From assembly GCA_019058365.1 (NCBI GenBank), contig JAHPZE010000006.1:64001-128000 (forward strand): a stretch of DNA of 64,000 bases, written 5' to 3'. This DNA comes from Promethearchaeota archaeon (GTDB lineage Archaea; Asgardarchaeota; Lokiarchaeia; Sigyniarchaeales; SOKP01). Positions 23,210-32,995 of this stretch are shown piece by piece. The position numbers were made by a program, and so were the translations under genes. Below the pieces are notes generated by a model. The model was not told the origin of the DNA. It did no database searches and saw only the letters and a list, made by a program, of their open reading frames with translations. The number at the start of each line of letters is the position of its first letter. Within the stretch, counting starts at the first letter, position 1.

Positions 23210-24616
23210 TTAACCTAAATTTCGAAAGCTAGTAATTGTCTTTTGGAGTTTCTCAAGTAAAATTTTTATTTCTGAGTTAAATTCTTTGAATGGCTCCAAC
23301 TCCGTGTTCAGTTTCTCGATTTTTTCATTCGTATTAGTTTGTAATGAAGTTATAGATTTTTCAATGCTTTTTTCAATATTTTGAGCCAATGAGTTTACTT
23401 GAGTATTTGTATTTGTTAATTTAGATTGAAGATTTTTTATCAACTCTTCGATTTGTGAATTTATTTGCGTAGTCTCTTTAACCTTTCCAGATACAGAATT
23501 AATTACTAATTCCATCTCATTTTTAATATTTGATATATGACCTTCGATGAGAGTGTTTAGATTATCAATAAGATTATTCTTTGTGGTAGAGATATCTGTT
23601 ATGAATTCTTTATTTTTTTTAACTCGAGTATCAACATAGTTAGAAACACTTTTTTTAAACTCAATTATCGTTTCATTCAATGTCATATTGAACCAATTAT
23701 CAACTTTAATTATTCCAGATGATATTGCATCCTTCATTTTATTTACTGATTTACTAATATACTCAGTGCCTTTAGATGTTCCCTGATTTACATCTTTAAT
23801 CCAATCTCCAATTTGAGTTTTGACAATATTCATGAACATATTTGAGATTTTTTCTGTTCCTTGTTGTAAACCTAAAGCGACTGAGGTTAATTCAGGATAT
23901 TCTACAATTTCTTCTTCAACTGTCTGTGTTTCTTCTGTTTTTGGAATTTCTTGCAATTCTCCAAGAGGTTGTTCAACAAATTCATTTATTTCCTTAATAA
24001 GAATAGGATTTTTTTTTTGGAAATCCTCTGAAAATTTTTGCACCCACTTAAAATACTCTAATGAGTTTGGAATTTCAATTTTAAATGGTACCATATGATA
24101 TTTATCAGCTTTAGTATAATCATCTAATCTATAAATTTCAAATCCAAGATTCCCATCCTTCCCCATGAGTGTATGATCAAAAACTATACTAAAACCATAA
24201 GGAAATTCCTCCTTTTGGAAATACTGTAAATTTACTAAATCACTCTCACTGAGGTACAAACCCCAAGAAGGGTGAGAATGGTAATATCCTATTAAAGCAG
24301 ATGAATATTTTTTACTGATCTCAGTAAATAAATCATAATCATCTTTATCAAATCCGATTTCTGCTTTATCTCCATGTGTTATAGGAACAGCATTTTCTAC
24401 AAAGACTTTTTCTTCGATAGTATCATATTTTCCTACACAGACCCCCATAACTTCTATACTTTGTTCTAATTTATCATTACCAAAACGTAGAACATGAGTA
24501 AGCATGTTTCTAAAAGCTTCCTTCTTAATGAATATATTTCCTTTTTCAGATTTACTTGTATCATCAAAATTTTTTTGATTTATTTTTTGATTAGATTTTT
24601 TTTCAACCACTTTCAC
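23210..24616 (-). CDS. JAMM/MPN+ metalloprotease with long helical/coiled-coil C-terminus
   Basis: IEVMG, GYYHSHPSWGLYLSESD (HxH-x7-S-x2-D); 4-nt GTGA overlap with the upstream paralogue. Confidence 0.88.
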   Translation of the reverse strand: MKVVEKKSNQKINQKNFDDTSKSEKGNIFIKKEAFRNMLTHVLRFGNDKLEQSIEVMGVCVGKYDTIEEKVFVENAVPITHGDKAEIGFDKDDYDLFTEISKKYSSALIGYYHSHPSWGLYLSESDLVNLQYFQKEEFPYGFSIVFDHTLMGKDGNLGFEIYRLDDYTKADKYHMVPFKIEIPNSLEYFKWVQKFSEDFQKKNPILIKEINEFVEQPLGELQEIPKTEETQTVEEEIVEYPELTSVALGLQQGTEKISNMFMNIVKTQIGDWIKDVNQGTSKGTEYISKSVNKMKDAISSGIIKVDNWFNMTLNETIIEFKKSVSNYVDTRVKKNKEFITDISTTKNNLIDNLNTLIEGHISNIKNEMELVINSVSGKVKETTQINSQIEELIKNLQSKLTNTNTQVNSLAQNIEKSIEKSITSLQTNTNEKIEKLNTELEPFKEFNSEIKILLEKLQKTITSFRNLG

Positions 24617-26094
24617 TCAACCCTCTCTGTTTCCAATTTTTTTATCTTAGCTAATAAATCTTGATTTTCTTTTCTTAAATCTGTGAGATCATTTTGGAGC
24701 GTCTTGATTTCAACTTTTTGTGTTTCCAATTTGTTTTGTAGTGAAGTTTTTGAGCTCTCTAGTAATATTATAGCAGCTTTTAAATCTGATAGAAAGCTTT
24801 TTGATTCTTTATTTAAATTAATAAAAGTTCCTATGATTTTATTAACATTTTTTGTGAAAGTTCCAGATAAATCTTTTATAATATTATCAAATTTTTCTGG
24901 AATTGTGTATTCTATTGAATTAAGGCTTTTAGATAAATTTTCTATAATATTACTTTGTTCATCCAAACTTTTAGAAGATGCTAAACCTAATTTATTTATA
25001 TTAGTTAATTCATCTATTTGGTTATTAAATTGAATTATAATACTGTTGATATTTTCCTTTAATTTTTCTTCAACTATTGATTTAAATTGTCCATTAAGTT
25101 CAGTCTTGATATTATCAAATAGATCTTTAAAGATTTCTTGATCAGAATCAAATTCTTCAAATTTATCATCAATGTACATGTCCAATTCGTTTAATTTTTC
25201 CTTAAAGGAAAATTTAAAATTTTTTTGAAGATTAGAAATCCCCTCACTTAACCTGTCTTTTATTGTAATCACATCTTTTCTTATTTGTAAATTATTCTTA
25301 ACAGTAGTATTGATCAAATTTTCACTCCAAGAATTAAGAAATATGATAAATGGTGCGATAACAATTTCTAAGAACTTTGTTAATTCTGTATTGAGTGCAG
25401 ATAAGATTTTAGTAGAATCTAATTCCGGTTTCTTTGTAAAAATTTGGCTTTCACTTGGAAATGCAATATCTCCAAAAAGATCGGGCATTTCATTAATTTC
25501 CAATATAGGAGGCTCTTTTGAGTGAATATTATTTATTAAATTGATTAATTTTAAATAATATTCAATACTATCAGGAGGTGCTACAGACGCTTTTACCTCG
25601 TGATAACCTGACATTTGACCTTTGGCTGGATTATCTAATCGAAATGTACGAAATCCTAAATCTCCTGGTTTTTCTAAATAAGCATGGTCAAAAACAATTC
25701 CTATGGCACTAGGGTTTGGAGTTTGCCAACCAAGTTGATTACGTATATCTGTTGAAGAAAAGAAAATATCCAGTTCGGGGTGAGAATGGTACCACCCACA
25801 ACTAAACCAGTTTTTTTCAGCATAAGCAGCATCAACCATAGAAAATGTTACATAATCTTCTGGGGCAAATGCAACTTCTATCGCACCACCGTGTGAAATG
25901 GGAATAGCATCTTCAATTATAACATCTCTAATTCCCTTCTTATCTGGTTCACCTTCACCTAATGATCCAATAAGTATTCCCATTACTTCTCGGTACTGCC
26001 TTTTATCTCTTGCTTTATTTCCAAAACGAAGGACATGTAGAAGCATTTTATAATAAGCTTCTGGTTTAATAATAACAGTTTTTTCAGAAGTCAA
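24613..26094 (-). CDS. JAMM/MPN+ metalloprotease with long helical/coiled-coil C-terminus
   Basis: REVMGILIG, GWYHSHPELDIFFSSTD, GIVFD. Confidence 0.9.
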   Translation of the reverse strand: MTSEKTVIIKPEAYYKMLLHVLRFGNKARDKRQYREVMGILIGSLGEGEPDKKGIRDVIIEDAIPISHGGAIEVAFAPEDYVTFSMVDAAYAEKNWFSCGWYHSHPELDIFFSSTDIRNQLGWQTPNPSAIGIVFDHAYLEKPGDLGFRTFRLDNPAKGQMSGYHEVKASVAPPDSIEYYLKLINLINNIHSKEPPILEINEMPDLFGDIAFPSESQIFTKKPELDSTKILSALNTELTKFLEIVIAPFIIFLNSWSENLINTTVKNNLQIRKDVITIKDRLSEGISNLQKNFKFSFKEKLNELDMYIDDKFEEFDSDQEIFKDLFDNIKTELNGQFKSIVEEKLKENINSIIIQFNNQIDELTNINKLGLASSKSLDEQSNIIENLSKSLNSIEYTIPEKFDNIIKDLSGTFTKNVNKIIGTFINLNKESKSFLSDLKAAIILLESSKTSLQNKLETQKVEIKTLQNDLTDLRKENQDLLAKIKKLETERVE

Positions 26095-26977: not shown

Positions 26978-27222
26978 TTCAAATCACTTTTTTTCACTAA
27001 ATTATATGAGATCAGTAATATTATAATGATAAATTTCGAATTTAAATTATTATTTATTTTTAAAATTTATCTTAAAGTTAAAAATTTTATCTGATTGATT
27101 AAGTTGATCGATAGTTAAAATGTTTAATTCTTATATTTTTGGTTTGGGATTAAAAACAAATAAATACAAATTATTCTATTATCTTGTAAAATACCATTGT
27201 TGAAAATAACAGGATTTTTATC

Positions 27223-28209
27223 ATGACTGTAATAATTCCAAAGAATGATTATTTAACTTTAGTGGCCGCAACTATTAGATTTGCTAATGCTCGTATTCCA
27301 AAGGATGATTGGTTAGAAGTTAGTGGCATCTTTACTGGAAGAAATGAAGGAGATGATGTATTCATAACAGAATGTTACCCCATCATGCATCAAGAATTAG
27401 ATAAAGATGCGGTAATTGATCAATATAAATGGAATGATGAAGATTATGAAGCTCTTTATATCATCGATGATGAAGCATTTTCAAGAGATCCACCTGAGTT
27501 TGTGGTCGGATGGTGGCATAGTCATCCTGGCTTTATTTGAACTGGATTTACCAGACTTAGCTAAAAGGTAATGATGAGTCACATCGATATTCGTACTACT
27601 CTATCATATCAACAAAATAATCCTTTGGCAATCTCACTAGTTTTTAATCCTACGAGACTTATTCGCCAGATCGAAGTAGCAAACAAAAAAGGAGATCCAG
27701 ATATACAACTAAAAAATGATCCTGGGTTTAAAATATTCAGGTTAGATGATATTAATCGAGGTCTTGAAGCATCTTATCATGCTATAGACTATAAAATTGA
27801 AGGATACGATAGTATGGAGCAATTGGTTACTTCAACTCAGAAATTTATTATCGATATTACTAATTTCTTCCCTAAGAATAATGTTCCACAAACTTATGAG
27901 AAATATATTGATGATAGAATAACTCAATTAAATTCATTATTCCAGGGAACTGAAGAATATTTAACCACATTGACCTATCGTGGTGAAAAAAAGAGAATCC
28001 CAGAAGTTATAGAAAATCAAAGCAAAGAAATTAGGAAATTTGTAGCTGAAACAATTATAAAGATTGAAAATATTAAGGAATTCATGAATTATTTAGAATA
28101 TAAAGAAAGAGAAACATTAATTCCACAAATCAAGGCTATAATAAACAAATGGGATGAACAAGTTGTTGGATTAGATAAGAGAATAAAAGAACTAAAGAAG
28201 AAATTTTAA
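27223..28209 (+). CDS. JAMM/MPN+ metalloprotease, intron-interrupted: join(27223..27534,27565..28209), 318 aa
   Basis: The two track ORFs share a frame. Removing 27535..27564 gives WLEVSG...GWWHSHPGF|KVMMSHID, an exact JAMM motif. Confidence 0.85.
27535..27564 (+). other. Candidate 30-nt archaeal-type (bulge-helix-bulge/loop) mRNA intron
   Basis: atttgaactggatttaccagacttagctaa; central helix GGCU(27529-32)/AGCU(27559-62), 3-nt bulge AA^A, exon helix CCU/AGG, 5' site UU^A, internal hairpin CUGG-AUUUA-CCAG. Confidence 0.78.
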
Positions 28210-28333
28210 CCCTAATAATTTTCATCTTATTTTTAGTTTTGATAAATTTTTATTTGATTACGCTTTTTTTTGATTAATTATACGATTATTTTTAAAAAAA
28301 ATATCAGAGAAATTTTAGAATTTAGTCATTATC

Positions 28334-30538
28334 ATGAGAAAAATTAATTTTCCTTTTACAGCGATTCTTGGTCAAGAGAAAATGAAGATGGGGTTAATCT
28401 TGAACGTTATTGACCCTCAAATAGGTGGTATCTTGTTAACTGGTCAACAAGGCACTGGAAAAAGTACTGCTGTAAGATCTCTCGTAGAACTGATGCCTCA
28501 AATTGAAATTGTTGCGGGTTGTGAATTTTCATGTGATCCTAATTCAGATATTGATGATTTATGCCAAAATTGCATAGAAAAAAAGGAAAAAGAGCAAATA
28601 ACTACAGAATTCCGTGATATGTGGCTTGTAAATTTGCCTTTAGGAGTCACAGAAGATATGGTTTGTGGGAGTCTATCTATAGATAAGGTATTAACTGAAG
28701 GAATAAGAGCTTTACACCCTGGGTTACTCGCGAAAGCAAATAGAGGTATTTTATATGTAGATGAAATTAATTTACTCCAAGATCATATCGTTGACGTTCT
28801 TCTAGATTCTGCAGCTTCAGGTGTAAATATCATAGAAAGAGAAGGAATCTCTATATCGCATCCTTCAAGATTCGTTCTGGTTGGTTCAATGAACCCAGAA
28901 GAGGGTGATTTAAGACCACAAATAGCAGATCGCTTGGGATTAGAAGTTAGGATTAAAGCCCCTAGAGATTCAGAATTAAGAGCAGAAATAACTAAAAGGG
29001 TTATAGAATTTGATGATCATCCAAAAGAATTTATTAAAAATTTTGAAGATGAACAAGAAAAATTAAGACAACAAATCCTTAATGCTCGTGATATTTTAAA
29101 GGAAGTTCAAATCCCTAGTTCTGTATATGAATTTGTATCCAAAATTGTAAATGAGTTAGAGATTTTTTCTCAAAGAGCAGATATTACTTTTATTCGATGT
29201 GCGAGAGCTCATGCTGCTTTAAATAGTAGAAAGGATATAGTTGAAGAAGATCTTAATGTGGCTATGGATTTAGTATTCGAACATAGAATTCAATCACTTC
29301 ATTATGAAATGACACCGGTAGAAATTAAAGCAAAAATAGCTGAAGTATATGGCAAAATAAGAGAGGCTTATGAAAATACAAAAGTACTCCAACCCAATAG
29401 AGAAACAGAAGGCCCTTTAAAGCATTCAGATGAACATCAAAAAGAGTTTAAACGTCAATCTGTTGATCCTGATAAAGTTGACATCCCAGAATCCCAAGAA
29501 CAGAAATTACCCCCTCCAAAATACCCTGATAATAAAAAAAGAAATCCTAAACCCGCGGGAGGATGGAAAGTAAAGAATATTCCTTTTGATGATGATCTTA
29601 GATTTTTTGAAGATAGACAAGTGGCTATGCCATTTATATATAAGATGGAAAAGAAAATGACCTCTATCTTAGATAACATAAAAAAGGACAGAAAGATATC
29701 TGATTATGGTGGAAGAGGGATCGGTAGGAGAATCAAAATATCCTCATCCCAAAAGGGCAGATATGTATCTTACAGATCACCTATACGTGAACAACCAAAA
29801 AGTATTGCTTTAGATGCTACCATTAGGAATTATTTAAAAAATATTGTATATAACGAAACTGAAATTGATTTCCCTATTCATTTTAATAAATATGATTTAA
29901 TGGATAAAATCTATGAATATCGCGCACCTTTAGCTCTCTTCTTTGTTTTAGATAGCTCAGCATCAATGTATTACGTAATAAAACAAATGACAGACGTTAT
30001 ATTATCATTACATCGAGAGGGATATAGAAAGAGAGATAAAATAGCTCTCATTGTATTTCGAGGTAAGGATGCTATTGTATTACAGAATCCCACTGTAAAT
30101 TTTAACATGGCTATTAATAAATTGAAAAAAATTGAAGGTAAATCATATACTCCAATGGCAGCAGCTTTAAAGAAGGTATCTGAGCTAATAAAAGTTGAGA
30201 AATTGAAGGATAGAAATATTATACCTATAGTCTTTATATGTAGCGATTGTGGAGCAAATATTTCTGTTAAATATCCTGATTTAATAGCCCAAATTGAAAC
30301 GGATTATTCTTTAATTACAAATGAATTAAAAGAATTAACAAAAAAATTATCAAAACAAAATATCCATATGGTTGTGCTAGAACCAAAAAAATCCTATGCG
30401 ACACACGCTCTTGGTGTACACACATATTCAGCAGAACATATTAAAAAAAACTTTAAAAAATACGCGAATGCTCAGATTTATAAGTTTAACAAATATAATC
30501 CCGACTCTTTAATATTAGAATTGAAAAAAATTCTCTAA
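28334..30538 (+). CDS. Mg-chelatase ChlI/ChlD-like AAA+ ATPase with C-terminal vWA domain
   Basis: FPFTAILGQ, GQQGTGKST, PGLLAKANRGILYVDEINLL, MNPEEG; Pro-rich linker; MIDAS DSSAS..T..D. Confidence 0.88.
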   Translation: MRKINFPFTAILGQEKMKMGLILNVIDPQIGGILLTGQQGTGKSTAVRSLVELMPQIEIVAGCEFSCDPNSDIDDLCQNCIEKKEKEQITTEFRDMWLVNLPLGVTEDMVCGSLSIDKVLTEGIRALHPGLLAKANRGILYVDEINLLQDHIVDVLLDSAASGVNIIEREGISISHPSRFVLVGSMNPEEGDLRPQIADRLGLEVRIKAPRDSELRAEITKRVIEFDDHPKEFIKNFEDEQEKLRQQILNARDILKEVQIPSSVYEFVSKIVNELEIFSQRADITFIRCARAHAALNSRKDIVEEDLNVAMDLVFEHRIQSLHYEMTPVEIKAKIAEVYGKIREAYENTKVLQPNRETEGPLKHSDEHQKEFKRQSVDPDKVDIPESQEQKLPPPKYPDNKKRNPKPAGGWKVKNIPFDDDLRFFEDRQVAMPFIYKMEKKMTSILDNIKKDRKISDYGGRGIGRRIKISSSQKGRYVSYRSPIREQPKSIALDATIRNYLKNIVYNETEIDFPIHFNKYDLMDKIYEYRAPLALFFVLDSSASMYYVIKQMTDVILSLHREGYRKRDKIALIVFRGKDAIVLQNPTVNFNMAINKLKKIEGKSYTPMAAALKKVSELIKVEKLKDRNIIPIVFICSDCGANISVKYPDLIAQIETDYSLITNELKELTKKLSKQNIHMVVLEPKKSYATHALGVHTYSAEHIKKNFKKYANAQIYKFNKYNPDSLILELKKIL

Positions 30539-30558
30539 ATATAATTTTCACTCATATA

Positions 30559-31809
30559 ATGCATAAAATGGTTAAGAAATCAAATTCCATACTTGTTGTT
30601 GGATTTAATACACGTCCTTTAGCTTTTTCATTGAATAAAGCAGGTTATAATATATACGCAGTAGATTTCTTTGGTGATTTAGATCTCTATCCATATGTAG
30701 ATGATTATATTATTGTAATAAAAGCTTTGAAAAGTAATTATAACTCTTTAAAAGAGAAATATAGTATATTCTTAGCTCAATTTGCTTTAGAATTGCATCG
30801 CAAACATAGAAATGTAGATTTTTTATTAATAGGTAGTGGTTTAGATGATGCCTATAAAGAAAGGGAAAAAATCTTAGATGAAATTAAGAGTTTTAATACG
30901 ATTAGCGTCAATAATGAGTTACAAGTTATTAAAAAGTCAAGAGATATAAAATATCTTCTTGAATTTCTTAAATCCCTTGGTTATAAGGTTCCTTTATCTT
31001 TTTCTTTTGAAAATTTTCGACTTTTAAACGCAAATCTGGAATATCCCTTTATATTAAAAAAAAAGAGAAGTGCAGGTGGCATAAATGTCTTCAAAGTTGA
31101 GCATGAAAAGAAATTAACGTCTCTAATACGTATTTTAGAAAAGAAAAAGTTTATTCCGTCAGAATGGTTAGTTCAAGAATACATTGAAGGAATTCCCGTT
31201 AGTTGTACAGTAATTTCTGATGGAAAAGAGTGTGAAGTCATATCCATAAATCGTCAAATCATTGGTGAAAAGTTTCTTTATGCTCCAAAAGATTTTATGT
31301 ATTGTGGAAATATCGTGCCTGCTGGATTGTCAATTGATGAAGAAAAAATTATATCTGAGATTTCGATGCTTCTAACAAAAGAATTAGGTCTACAAGGGAT
31401 TAATGGGTTTGACTTTGTTTTAAAAGATAATTATCCTTATTTTATGGAATGTAATCCAAGAATTCCTGGATCAATTAGAGCTTCAGAATCTGTTCTGAAC
31501 TTGAATCTTTTAGATTTACACATAAAATGCTTTATACCTAATGAATGGAAAAACATTAAAAAATTGATTAAATCTACGATACCTAAAACTTTTGCTACAA
31601 AATTGGTATTTTTTGCTCCAAAAGATATAGAAAAAAGAATTTTATCAAAAATAAATAATCTTGAATTTGTTTATGATAAAACTGAGCCAACTAAAGATGT
31701 TTTAAAAGGGGAACCTTTATGTACTGTTTTATATGTTGCTAAAGATTATCTTGCATCTTTTAATGGAGCGAAAAAGATTATAAATGAAATCGAGAGAATT
31801 ATTGGATAA
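30559..31809 (+). CDS. ATP-grasp carboligase-like protein
   Basis: AVDFFGDLD, SAGG, VQEYIEG, FMYCGNI, GINGFDF, MECNPR. Confidence 0.8.
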   Translation: MHKMVKKSNSILVVGFNTRPLAFSLNKAGYNIYAVDFFGDLDLYPYVDDYIIVIKALKSNYNSLKEKYSIFLAQFALELHRKHRNVDFLLIGSGLDDAYKEREKILDEIKSFNTISVNNELQVIKKSRDIKYLLEFLKSLGYKVPLSFSFENFRLLNANLEYPFILKKKRSAGGINVFKVEHEKKLTSLIRILEKKKFIPSEWLVQEYIEGIPVSCTVISDGKECEVISINRQIIGEKFLYAPKDFMYCGNIVPAGLSIDEEKIISEISMLLTKELGLQGINGFDFVLKDNYPYFMECNPRIPGSIRASESVLNLNLLDLHIKCFIPNEWKNIKKLIKSTIPKTFATKLVFFAPKDIEKRILSKINNLEFVYDKTEPTKDVLKGEPLCTVLYVAKDYLASFNGAKKIINEIERIIG

Positions 31810-32536
31810 TAGCTTTAATTTTAGCAATGTAAGATCCTAATTTTCTCTCGTCAGACTCGGGAACAGCAAGTGCTAAGACTCTGTTTTCATCTAAATCGTG
31901 GATTATAACAGAACCATTTTCCCCTCCTATAATACAGTATTCCATATGACTTTCTAGTAATACTCCAGATAAATTATATAATGCAGCAACCATAGCTGAA
32001 AGAATTGGTTCAGGCATAGTTGATTGTATCTTAATTGGTAATCCATCTTTGGTAATAATTGCTAACACTAGAGTATTTGGTATCGCTCTTTTCAAACCTT
32101 TAAATATTTCTTCTTTAAGAATATCTGATGTTTCTGCAATAGCGGTTATTTGTAGGCTTAATTTTTGTAGTCTATTAATAAATGAATCTAATCCTTCAAG
32201 TTCAGCTAACTCTCTATTTAAATAACTTATCATTGTAATATGTTCTGTTAATATGGAGAGGACAATTTTTTCCTTACCAATAATTAAGTTATAAGAAACA
32301 TCTTGATTTAGTGAATCTCTTAACATTTTAGATGAAAGGTATACAAGGCTACTATTTGCTGCTGTAATTTCACCCATTGTCATTTTAACTTCTTTTTTAA
32401 ATTTGCTTGCTATTTTTGTTCCCTCAGCGGTTCCAACATTGATTCCCAGAATAGCTGGTGCTGAATCAAGCTCTTTTTCTATTATTTCAGATACATCTGA
32501 TTCTAATTCTTCGATTATTTTTTCTTGCTTTTCCAT
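31799..32536 (-). CDS. Tandem roadblock/LC7-domain protein
   Basis: Two ~115-aa units: VGTAEGTKIAS..ITAANSSL and IITKDGLPI..LSAMVAAL..IIGGENG. Confidence 0.75.
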   Translation of the reverse strand: MEKQEKIIEELESDVSEIIEKELDSAPAILGINVGTAEGTKIASKFKKEVKMTMGEITAANSSLVYLSSKMLRDSLNQDVSYNLIIGKEKIVLSILTEHITMISYLNRELAELEGLDSFINRLQKLSLQITAIAETSDILKEEIFKGLKRAIPNTLVLAIITKDGLPIKIQSTMPEPILSAMVAALYNLSGVLLESHMEYCIIGGENGSVIIHDLDENRVLALAVPESDERKLGSYIAKIKAIIQ

Positions 32537-32629: not shown

Positions 32630-32941
32630 TTGAAGATTAAATTAATTAATTATGTAATTATGTTAACAGGTTGTTATGATACAAGATTAAAACCGCTCTC
32701 TTATCGAAGTCCAAAAACTCTACTTGAAATCGCTTATGTAATAATTAGAAAATATTGCAGAATCGGTGATTTTTGTGATTTATCAGATATTATTATTTTC
32801 GATAATACCATTATTGGCAAATCATGCAAATTAAATTGGTGTATTATAGATGAGAATATAAAAATACCAGACAAGTTTAATACAACAAATTGTTTTATTA
32901 TTAAAAATGATAAAAAAGAATTAGAAATAATAACTTATTAA
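32630..32941 (+). pseudogene. Internally deleted, degenerate sugar-phosphate nucleotidyltransferase remnant
   Basis: Decayed motif MLTGCYDTRLKPLSYRSPKTLL (cf. LAGGxGTRLxPLTxxxPKPL) joined directly to hexapeptide repeats IGDFCDL..IIFDNTIIGKSCKL..CII. Confidence 0.7.
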
Positions 32942-32995
32942 ATTTTAATCATTATAGTAAAAATTATAAATAAATAATATTGTGATCTTGTTATA

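What the first reader, a model, noticed from the sequence alone, without database searches (positions are those of the whole stretch)
27523..27576. Candidate tRNA-type (BHB/BHL) intron inside the active site of an Asgard JAMM protease mRNA
Seen: ORFs 27223..27540 and 27571..28209 are in frame and separated by ATT TGA ACT GGA TTT ACC AGA CTT AGC TAA (27535..27564, 30 nt, two stops). Deleting it yields HSHPGF-KVMMSHID, the exact HxH-x7-S-x2-D spacing of the two neighbouring paralogues. Independently, the RNA can fold as exon helix CCU(27526-28):AGG(27566-68), 3-nt bulge AAA(27563-65), 4-bp central helix GGCU(27529-32):AGCU(27559-62), then UUA(27533-35) opening into a loop closed by CUGG/CCAG. 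Established: archaeal EndA cuts after the second nucleotide of each bulge flanking a 4-bp helix, here after 27534 and after 27564, exactly the junctions the protein motif requires. Archaeal mRNA introns of this type are rare, with crenarchaeal cbf5 the classic case. Inference: EndA/RtcB splicing gates expression of a deubiquitinase-like enzyme, conceptually like RtcB-ligated XBP1 splicing. The 5' site is a relaxed loop, not a strict bulge.
Basis: partly seen in the sequence, partly recalled or inferred. Interest (0 to 1): 0.97.

Follow-up and report, generated by a model that had tools for sequence, protein, structure and literature searches.

The report
tRNA-type mini-intron in Asgard protease gene
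A 30-base insert that breaks the active-site motif of a deubiquitinase-like (MPN+/JAMM) gene of a Lokiarchaeon has the shape and cut sites of an archaeal tRNA intron. Twelve related alleles keep such an insert at the same spot with compensating base changes, so the mRNA is very probably spliced by the tRNA-splicing enzymes, which papers report for only one archaeal coding sequence (cbf5).

Summary
Positions 27535-27564 are a 30-nt insert with two stop codons, and removing it restores the HxH-x7-S-xx-D motif. Independent DNA assemblies carry the insert, so it is not a misassembly.

Of 58 distinct orthologues from Promethearchaeota (Loki) genomes and metagenomes, 46 lack the insert exactly at the predicted junction. 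Twelve carry 29-32 nt inserts at the same site, and nine of these are not multiples of three.
- **Structure:** the 4-bp central helix pairs in every allele, with three compensatory double changes. Seven alleles have a strict bulge-helix-bulge, and the canonical cut rule then gives exactly the intronless junction.
- **Selection:** both exons stay open, and dN/dS is 0.04-0.17 between intron-bearing alleles. The intron is far more conserved than four-fold degenerate sites.
- **Machinery:** the genome encodes EndA alpha and beta subunits and RtcB.
- **Same genome:** my own scan also found 30-nt BHB inserts in Rpo1N and AMP phosphorylase.

Best reading (0.82): a real EndA/RtcB-spliced mRNA intron. 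This window's allele is a relaxed hBH-loop form. No RNA data exist, and the "regulated gating" idea is untested. The patchy presence of the intron argues against a conserved regulatory role.

Earlier notes of this scan report similar mini-introns in other genes of this genome and in other Asgard and DPANN genomes.

The parts
27223..27534 (+). Exon 1 of the MPN+/JAMM gene (104 codons; ends ...HSHPGF)
   Evidence: ORF. Pfam JAB PF01398, E 3.6e-9. Orthologue exon 1 ends at the same base.
27535..27564 (+). 30-nt BHB-type (hBH-loop) intron with in-frame TGA and TAA
   Evidence: Absent from 46 orthologues, and present as 29-32 nt in 12 alleles at the same site. Present in independent DNA contigs.
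27565..28209 (+). Exon 2 (214 codons plus stop; starts KVMMSHID, so it carries the Ser and Asp of the JAMM motif and the helical C-terminal part)
   Evidence: Open in all intron-bearing alleles, with dN/dS 0.04-0.17.
27529..27532 (+). 5' strand of the 4-bp central helix H (exonic; Gly codon plus first base of Phe)
   Evidence: Pairs with 27559-27562. 100% of cells are paired across alleles, with compensatory changes.
27559..27562 (+). 3' strand of the central helix H (intronic)
   Evidence: the intron-side changes match the exon-side changes in L055, L021 and L039.
27563..27565 (+). 3-nt 3' bulge; predicted cut between 27564 and 27565
   Evidence: Cut rule 'between second and third bulge residue' from PMC2738675. 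AAA in 10 of 11 aligned alleles.
27533..27541 (+). 5' splice-site region. The first three bases correspond to the 5' bulge of the strict alleles (predicted cut between 27534 and 27535). Here they lie in a 9-nt side of an internal loop.
   Evidence: The closing helix h' is present in the type B alleles and lost in this allele.
27542..27554 (+). Intron hairpin (4-bp stem, 5-nt loop)
   Evidence: Pair 28:41 of alignment A1 switches C:G/U:A four times.
27521..27528 (+). 5' strand of the exon helix h (3 bp next to the bulge plus 5 bp after a 2-nt asymmetry), pairing with 27566-27575
   Evidence: Conservation of the pairs is partial: 78.8% of cells paired.
27566..27575 (+). 3' strand of the exon helix h

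Best explanation
27535-27564 is a bulge-helix-bulge-type mini-intron in the coding sequence of an MPN+/JAMM (Rpn11/CSN5-like) metalloprotease gene of a Promethearchaeota (Lokiarchaeial, Asgard) archaeon. The unspliced mRNA would stop after 105 codons, before the Ser and Asp of the metal site. The heteromeric (alpha-beta)2 tRNA-splicing endonuclease EndA is inferred to recognise the exon helix, 3-nt bulge and 4-bp helix. It would cut after 27534 and after 27564, RtcB would join the exons, and the product would be a 318-aa enzyme with an intact HxH-x7-S-xx-D motif. The 30-nt intron is probably released as a circle. This window's allele is a relaxed (hBH-loop) derivative of a strict hBHBh' intron that survives in related species. 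Splicing is most likely constitutive. The intron looks like a tolerated, once or still mobile insertion in a conserved motif rather than a regulatory device. Shown here: the insert, its position, structure conservation and covariation, selection on both exons, and presence of the enzymes. Inferred: cleavage, ligation and circularisation.
For: - **Precise presence/absence polymorphism.** 46 of 58 distinct orthologues lack the insert exactly at the predicted junction. Twelve alleles carry 29, 30, 31 or 32 nt there, and nine of these are not multiples of 3.
- **Structure (alignment A1).** The central helix is paired in 100% of cells. G:C changes to A:U once, C:G changes to U:A twice (in two different intron types), and G:C changes to G:U once. 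Helix h' and the hairpin also switch pair types. The covariation score is 0.148 against 0.071 in shuffles (0 of 500 reach it). 84.9% of cells are paired, against at most 49.2% when partners are slid.
- **Strict alleles.** In the strict alleles (L022, L047 and others) the MFE fold is a textbook BHB. The published cut rule (PMC2738675) then gives exactly the intronless junction.
- **Host gene is alive.** Both exons are open in all intron-bearing alleles. dN/dS is 0.04-0.17 between intron-bearing pairs, including type A pairs at dS 1.2.
- **Intron conservation.** The intron is 84-90% identical where four-fold degenerate sites are about 40% identical.
- **Real DNA.** Contigs from four runs in at least three studies bridge the insert. 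One variant has 31 nt.
- **Machinery.** A catalytic EndA (198 aa, Tyr/His/Lys), a second EndA-fold protein without the His (206 aa), and RtcB are present. Asgard EndA is reported as (alpha-beta)2 with the L1 loop that gives broad specificity (PMC5829648).
- **Same genome.** My own scan finds 30-nt BHB inserts that restore GHFGH|IEL in the essential Rpo1N gene and DKHS|TGG in AMP phosphorylase.
Against: - No RNA evidence of any kind is available. No RNA run holds the locus, and no spliced-form product is on record.
- In this allele the 5' site is not a 3-nt bulge. It lies in a 9/4 internal loop, and one base of the closing pair seen in 31-nt type A alleles is deleted. Only about 14 substitutions have accumulated since then (G000 against G005), so selection on this exact form is weakly sampled.
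- The folding energies are not better than shuffles.
- In several alleles the MFE fold and RNAalifold prefer a competing exon-exon helix.
- Pairs of the exon helix h are broken in 4 of 10 alleles at the position next to the bulge.
- Covariation rests on few independent events among related sequences.
Confidence: 0.82

Rival explanations
1. Recently dead gene. The ancestral intron was spliced, but the relaxed 30-nt form of G000/G005 has lost its h' helix and one more base. It is no longer cut, so this copy is a young pseudogene or is expressed very poorly.
For: The 5' site is a loop, not a bulge. The 31-nt type A alleles still have one closing pair that is deleted here. Two MPN+ paralogues next door could cover the function.
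Against: The 30-nt form is fixed in two species-level genomes and in two further metagenome contigs, and it lies in contigs from several sites. dN/dS between G000 and G005 is 0.13, and neither exon has a further lesion. Type A introns without an h' helix persist under dN/dS 0.08 at dS 1.2 (L023 against L057). (alpha-beta)2 EndAs with the L1 loop cut hBH/BHL motifs (PMC5829648).
Confidence: 0.08
2. Split gene. The two ORFs are translated separately (105 aa, and 212 aa from ATG 27571) and assemble non-covalently. The hairpin is an intercistronic element.
For: Exon 2 begins six bases before a conserved ATG ATG. Every insert supplies a stop for exon 1.
Against: It does not explain the following:
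- why the insert pairs with exon bases and covaries with them;
- why the canonical BHB cut sites fall exactly on the orthologous junction;
- why the K and V codons between the insert and the ATG stay conserved.

The metal ligands His/His and Ser/Asp would also lie on two chains split inside a 14-residue motif.
Confidence: 0.06
3. Recoding during translation: ribosomal bypass as in phage T4 gene 60, stop-codon read-through, or frameshifting.
For: A hairpin lies directly after a stop-containing gap, which is superficially like gene 60.
Against: No landing codon matches the take-off codon. The Phe codon at 27532-34 has no UUU/UUC before 27565. Inserts of 29, 30, 31 and 32 nt would need four different frame corrections.
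Confidence: 0.01
4. Assembly or sequencing artefact, or a chance insertion with no biology.
For: The genome is a metagenome-assembled genome of 54 contigs with 6.6% contamination.
Against: Independent contigs from four runs carry the insert. Eleven other alleles from other assemblies have an insert at the same site.
Confidence: 0.01

Closest known systems
cbf5 pre-mRNA intron of Crenarchaeota (Watanabe 2002; Yoshinari 2006; Yokobori 2009, PMC2738675)
   Same: It is a BHB-type intron inside a protein-coding sequence, sitting at a catalytic-residue codon. Its motif is mostly relaxed and is handled by a hetero-oligomeric EndA. The predicted cuts lie between the second and third bulge residues. 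Its distribution is patchy, implying gains and losses.
   Different: The host gene here is an MPN+/JAMM protease, not a pseudouridine synthase. The phylum is Promethearchaeota (Asgard). There are two structural types at one site. Unlike cbf5, there is no cDNA or in-vitro cleavage evidence.
Archaeal tRNA and rRNA BHB introns cut by EndA and joined by RtcB
   Same: The motif geometry is the same: a 4-bp helix, 3-nt bulges, and cut sites two bases into each bulge. The size is typical of tRNA introns. The genome has many intron-bearing tRNA genes.
   Different: This one lies in an mRNA with no tRNA body to help recognition. Its excision decides the reading frame and active site of a protein.
46-nt BHB intron in the 5' UTR of Haloferax volcanii HVO_1309 (PMC7714728)
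   Same: It is an mRNA substrate of the tRNA-splicing endonuclease, and its intron was detected as a circle.
   Different: It lies in the untranslated leader, not in the coding sequence. It is experimentally shown, and this one is not.
HAC1/XBP1 unconventional mRNA splicing (Ire1 cut, RtcB or Trl1 ligation)
   Same: It is non-spliceosomal. A short intron is removed by an endonuclease that leaves a cyclic phosphate, and in metazoa the joining is by RtcB. Removal decides which protein is made.
   Different: The nuclease is Ire1 acting on paired 7-nt loops, and the process is stress-regulated. Here the nuclease would be EndA acting on a BHB, and nothing suggests regulation. The likeness is one of analogy only.
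Phage T4 gene 60 translational bypass
   Same: It is a short coding gap with a stop codon and a hairpin.
   Different: Bypass needs matching take-off and landing codons, which are absent here. The variable insert lengths in relatives fit RNA removal, not hopping.

Membership tests
Archaeal BHB/BHL intron (EndA substrate) | 4-bp central helix between the two cut sites | tested here: met
   27529-32 pairs with 27559-62. It is paired in 100% of cells across 10 distinct alleles, and 2 of 4 pairs show compensatory changes.
Archaeal BHB/BHL intron (EndA substrate) | 3-nt bulge at the 3' site, closed by an exon helix | tested here: met
   Bulge 27563-65 is closed by 27526-28:27566-68 plus a further 5 bp. 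The closing pair is broken in 4 of 10 alleles, and all four of those have a strict 5' half.
Archaeal BHB/BHL intron (EndA substrate) | 3-nt bulge at the 5' site, closed by an intron helix h' (strict hBHBh') | tested here: not met
   In this window the 5' site lies in a 9/4-nt internal loop, so the motif is the relaxed hBH-loop form. The strict form is met in the type B alleles L022, L021, L039, L032, L046, L047 and L083.
Archaeal BHB/BHL intron (EndA substrate) | Cuts between the 2nd and 3rd bulge residues yield a functional product | tested here: met
   The rule is from PMC2738675. The predicted product equals the junction of 46 intronless orthologues and restores HxH-x7-S-xx-D.
Archaeal BHB/BHL intron (EndA substrate) | Host has an EndA able to cut relaxed motifs, and an RtcB ligase | tested here: inconclusive
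   Two PF01974 proteins are present, one with Tyr/His/Lys and one lacking the His, which fits the alpha plus beta type. RtcB is present. The L1 specificity loop was not examined here and is known only from PMC5829648 for other Asgard genomes.
Archaeal BHB/BHL intron (EndA substrate) | Intron actually excised from RNA (spliced reads, circular intron, in-vitro cleavage) | not testable with these tools
   No RNA run holds the locus, and no spliced-form protein is on record.
[quoted passage not shown] | Interrupted gene remains under purifying selection across species that carry the intron | tested here: met
   dN/dS is 0.04-0.17 for 53 measurable intron-bearing pairs (two more were saturated at dS). 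Both exons are open in all.
JAMM/MPN+ metalloprotease (host gene) | Glu ... HxH-x7-S-xx-D metal-site motif in an MPN fold | tested here: met
   Pfam JAB PF01398 on exon 1. The best solved relatives are CSN5 and Rpn11 at E 1e-4 to 1e-3. The motif is complete only after removal of the insert, and the Glu lies in ...LEVSG... Isopeptidase activity was not tested.
Translational bypass (T4 gene 60 type) | Matching take-off and landing codons flanking the gap | tested here: not met
   Read directly from the sequence: there is no Phe codon immediately before 27565.
Multi-copy mobile element | Further copies of the same sequence and structure in the genome; target-site duplication | tested here: not met
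   Covariance model R1 finds only this locus (E 6e-9). The next hits have E about 2 and are not introns. No direct repeats flank the insert.

The most novel reading that the evidence does not exclude
The mini-intron moves between lineages on its own. Type A introns, 84-90% identical, sit in two host-gene clades that the protein tree keeps apart (AU p = 0.008), while synonymous sites between them are saturated. A type B intron sits inside one of those clades. With no homing endonuclease and no second genomic copy, this would point to spread of a 30-nt BHB intron by reverse splicing or short-tract gene conversion into a conserved active-site motif. It would be one of a genome-wide set of such introns in Lokiarchaeial protein genes: an mRNA intron population in the closest prokaryotic relatives of eukaryotes, maintained by the tRNA-splicing enzymes.
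Probability: 0.25. Interest if true: 0.92.

Novelty: new member of a known kind. Interest (0 to 1): 0.8.

Why it matters
In the papers I could search, endonuclease-dependent splicing of an archaeal coding sequence is confirmed only for cbf5 in Crenarchaeota (PMC2738675). PMC7714728 repeats this in 2020 and adds one 5' UTR case. I found nothing on Asgard mRNA introns.

Here an Asgard archaeon needs the tRNA-splicing machinery to make a eukaryote-like MPN+ isopeptidase. The site comes with a natural allelic series: intronless, strict BHB and relaxed BHL. That series makes EndA substrate rules, intron gain and loss, and possible intron mobility directly testable.

Together with the Rpo1N and AMP phosphorylase cases in the same genome, it implies that gene callers systematically split or truncate Lokiarchaeial genes. 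It also implies that mRNA splicing of a simple, protein-enzyme kind is routine in the lineage nearest to eukaryotes.

Tried and rejected
- **RNA evidence.** No RNA holder is listed for 27000-28400, so expression and splicing could not be examined.
- **Spliced-form products.** I searched 5.8 billion proteins with the read-through translation. No ~318-aa protein is more than 84% identical to this allele, and none is more than 93% identical to any intron-bearing allele. No RNA-derived spliced form was found.
- **Thermodynamics.** z-scores are 0.1 to -2.5 and mostly not significant. RNAalifold chose a competing exon-exon helix. Stability cannot decide the matter.
- **Generic genome scan (BHB geometry plus ORF merging).** It gave 11,440 loose hits, mostly gene junctions. 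It is unspecific, and useful only when the junction restores a known motif.
- **Covariance model of the intron against the whole genome.** There was no second copy.
- **Other sequence checks.** Rfam gave nothing relevant. There is no target-site duplication.
- **Metagenome pattern scan.** It returned only four further loci, of which one is a new allele.
- **Explanations considered and rejected.** These are misassembly, translational bypass, read-through or frameshifting (variable insert lengths, no landing codon), and a pseudogene for the lineage as a whole (dN/dS).

Full report
**What is in the sequence.** The + strand carries an ORF at 27223..27540 and an in-frame ORF at 27571..28209. Reading through gives a 328-residue string with a ten-codon insert that holds TGA and TAA. 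Exon 1 matches Pfam JAB/MPN (PF01398, E 3.6e-9). Over the whole read-through, the nearest solved relatives are CSN5 and Rpn11 (E 1e-4 to 1e-3). Removing 27535-27564 gives HSHPGF-KVMMSHID, which has the HxH-x7-S-xx-D spacing of the two paralogues upstream. Removing 27536-27565 gives the same product.

**The fold.** It consists of an exon helix (3 bp plus 5 bp), a 3-nt bulge at 27563-65, a 4-bp central helix 27529-32:27559-62, a 9/4-nt internal loop holding the 5' site, and a 4-bp hairpin. Its energy equals that of shuffled sequences (z = 0.11). The fold alone proves nothing.

**Artefact excluded.** Contigs from four other public DNA runs bridge the insert. They come from sediment, two salt-marsh studies and a marine sediment. 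None lacks it, and one variant carries an extra base, making 31 nt. No run on record is RNA.

**Relatives.** The window lies in a 4.7-Mb, 29.5% GC genome. The record titles of its relatives name Promethearchaeota, the Lokiarchaeial phylum of the Asgard kingdom. I collected orthologues from 41 related genomes, from 53 loci of the species-genome collection and from four metagenome contigs.
- After removing duplicates there are 57 distinct genes in the tree, plus one more allele (L083).
- Forty-six are uninterrupted. Exon 1 and exon 2 of the window align to them end to end, with the joint exactly at 27534|27565.
- Twelve alleles carry an insert at exactly this site. One is 29 nt, three are 30 nt, seven are 31 nt and one is 32 nt.
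- Nine of the twelve would shift the frame, so translation through the insert cannot be the common solution.

**Structure conservation.** The inserts fall into two types.
- *Type B* comprises L022, L021, L039, L032, L046, L047 and L083. It has a helix h' directly after a 3-nt 5' bulge, so it is a strict hBHBh' motif. For L022 and L047 this is the MFE fold.
- *Type A* comprises this window, G005, L026, L055 and L057. It has lost h' and keeps the exon helix, 3' bulge and central helix (hBH plus loop).

On the 11-sequence alignment A1, the named structure pairs in 84.9% of cells, against at most 49.2% when partners are slid. The covariation score is 0.148 against 0.071 in shuffles (0 of 500 reach it).
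- The central helix pairs in every allele. Its second pair is G:C eight times, A:U once and G:U once. Its third pair is C:G eight times and U:A twice.
- The two U:A cases are in a type A allele and a type B allele, so they are separate events.
- Each exon-side change is matched by the complementary change on the intron side, which no coding constraint can explain.
- Helix h' and the hairpin also switch pair types: A:U, U:A and G:C in one case, and C:G or U:A four times each in the other.
- The bulge letters vary freely, as expected for a structure-read motif.

**Cut sites.** The published rule places the cuts between the second and third bulge residues (PMC2738675). In the strict alleles this gives exactly the junction seen in intronless orthologues. 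In this window it gives 27534|27535 and 27564|27565.

**Weak points of the structure.** The exon-helix pair next to the bulge is broken in four alleles, all of which have a strict 5' half. RNAalifold and several MFE folds prefer a competing helix between the two exon ends.

**The gene is alive.**
- All intron-bearing alleles have both exons open at full length, and after removal all show the complete metal-site motif.
- dN/dS between intron-bearing alleles is 0.04-0.17. This includes pairs that both carry the relaxed type A intron at dS 1.2 (0.083), and the close pair G000/G005 (0.13).
- The intron is 84-90% identical between lineages whose four-fold degenerate sites are only about 40% identical. 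This is the opposite of what a dead insert would show.

**Machinery.** The genome encodes a 198-aa EndA with the Tyr/His/Lys pattern, a 206-aa EndA-fold protein that lacks the His, and RtcB. This fits the (alpha-beta)2 enzyme reported for Asgard archaea, whose L1 loop confers broad substrate range (PMC5829648). I did not examine the loop. ARAGORN calls introns in 19 of 30 tRNA predictions.

**Context in the same genome.** I scanned the genome myself for BHB geometry whose removal merges two long open frames. The scan is unspecific (11,440 loose hits). It does recover this intron, and it also recovers 30-nt inserts that restore GHFGH|IEL in RNA polymerase subunit Rpo1N and DKHS|TGG in AMP phosphorylase. 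An essential polymerase subunit that needs such an excision implies that this organism splices mRNAs this way. Earlier notes of this scan list these and further cases in this genome, and in other Asgard and DPANN genomes. I used them as leads and confirmed only the two named cases.

**History.** All intron-bearing alleles lie in one well-supported clade of 41 genes (100/98). The 16 genes outside it are all intronless. Within the clade the distribution needs eight changes, and at least six are forced by well-supported branches. The intron has therefore been lost precisely, or gained, many times.

Type A occurs in two clades that the protein tree separates, while a type B allele sits inside one of them. 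An AU test rejects the uniting tree (p = 0.008), although I named the group after seeing the tree. A covariance model of the intron finds no second copy in the genome, and no flanking repeats are present. Lateral movement of the intron alone, short-tract conversion, or constraint with parallel change all remain open.

**Mechanism and rivals.** The best reading is an EndA/RtcB-spliced mRNA intron (0.82).
- *Young pseudogene* (0.08): this particular relaxed allele may no longer be cut.
- *Two separately translated halves* (0.06): this does not explain the exon-intron covariation or the exact junction.
- *Recoding* (0.01): there is no landing codon, and the four insert lengths would need four different corrections.
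- *Artefact* (0.01).

**Regulation.** Most orthologues lack the intron, and the location in a highly conserved motif is what one expects of insertions that spread or persist at conserved sequence. This part is inference.

**Comparison with the known.** The closest case is the cbf5 pre-mRNA intron of Crenarchaeota. The two share the kind of motif (often relaxed), a position at a catalytic codon, dependence on a heteromeric EndA, and a history of gain and loss. This one differs in gene and phylum, and in lacking cDNA proof. A 2020 study states that cbf5 was the only coding-gene case, and adds a 5' UTR intron in Haloferax (PMC7714728). A 2026 preprint on Asgard tRNA introns does not mention mRNAs. 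I therefore class this as a new member of a known kind. The evidence is unusually clean comparative evidence, with no RNA evidence.

Noticed in passing
G000 contig C52, + strand, 2085-2114 (outside the window): A 30-nt in-frame insert with a 4-bp central helix, an h' helix and an AAA 3' bulge. Its removal restores the conserved GHFGH|IEL motif of RNA polymerase subunit Rpo1N.
   Followed up: partly
G000 contig C9, + strand, about 32935-32964 (outside the window): A 30-nt BHB-like insert whose removal restores DKHS|TGG in AMP phosphorylase. Like the Rpo1N insert, it lacks the exon helix (HBh' type), which is the opposite relaxation to the JAMM intron.
   Followed up: partly
Loci L001/L002/L026 against L023/L057 against L047: Intron type (A or B) conflicts with the host-gene protein tree (AU p = 0.008, post hoc). 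Type A introns are 84-90% identical where four-fold degenerate sites are about 40% identical. This may be lateral movement of the mini-intron or short-tract gene conversion.
   Followed up: partly
window 27529-27534 with 27565-27570, and the same columns in relatives: A competing helix between the two exon ends is preferred by RNAalifold and by the MFE folds of six alleles. It excludes the BHB central helix, and its role, if any, is unknown.
   Followed up: partly
window 23210-24616 (-), 24613-26094 (-), 27223-28209 (+): Three MPN+/JAB paralogues are clustered. The two upstream ones (468 and 493 aa) have long coiled-coil-like C-terminal halves. All have the Glu and HxH-x7-S-xx-D motif. Only the third carries the intron.
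   Followed up: partly
window 28334-32536: The downstream neighbours are a 734-aa ChlI/ChlD-like AAA+ protein with a vWA domain, an ATP-grasp enzyme, and a Roadblock/LC7 protein on the opposite strand. Any link to the MPN+ genes is untested.
   Followed up: no
Their orthologues are about 80% identical to the window's gene and nest inside the same Lokiarchaeial clade. The phylum labels look unreliable.
   Followed up: no
G000 whole genome: ARAGORN reports introns in 19 of 30 tRNA predictions, several at non-canonical positions, and it finds only 30 tRNAs. This suggests many more interrupted tRNA genes are missed.
   Followed up: no
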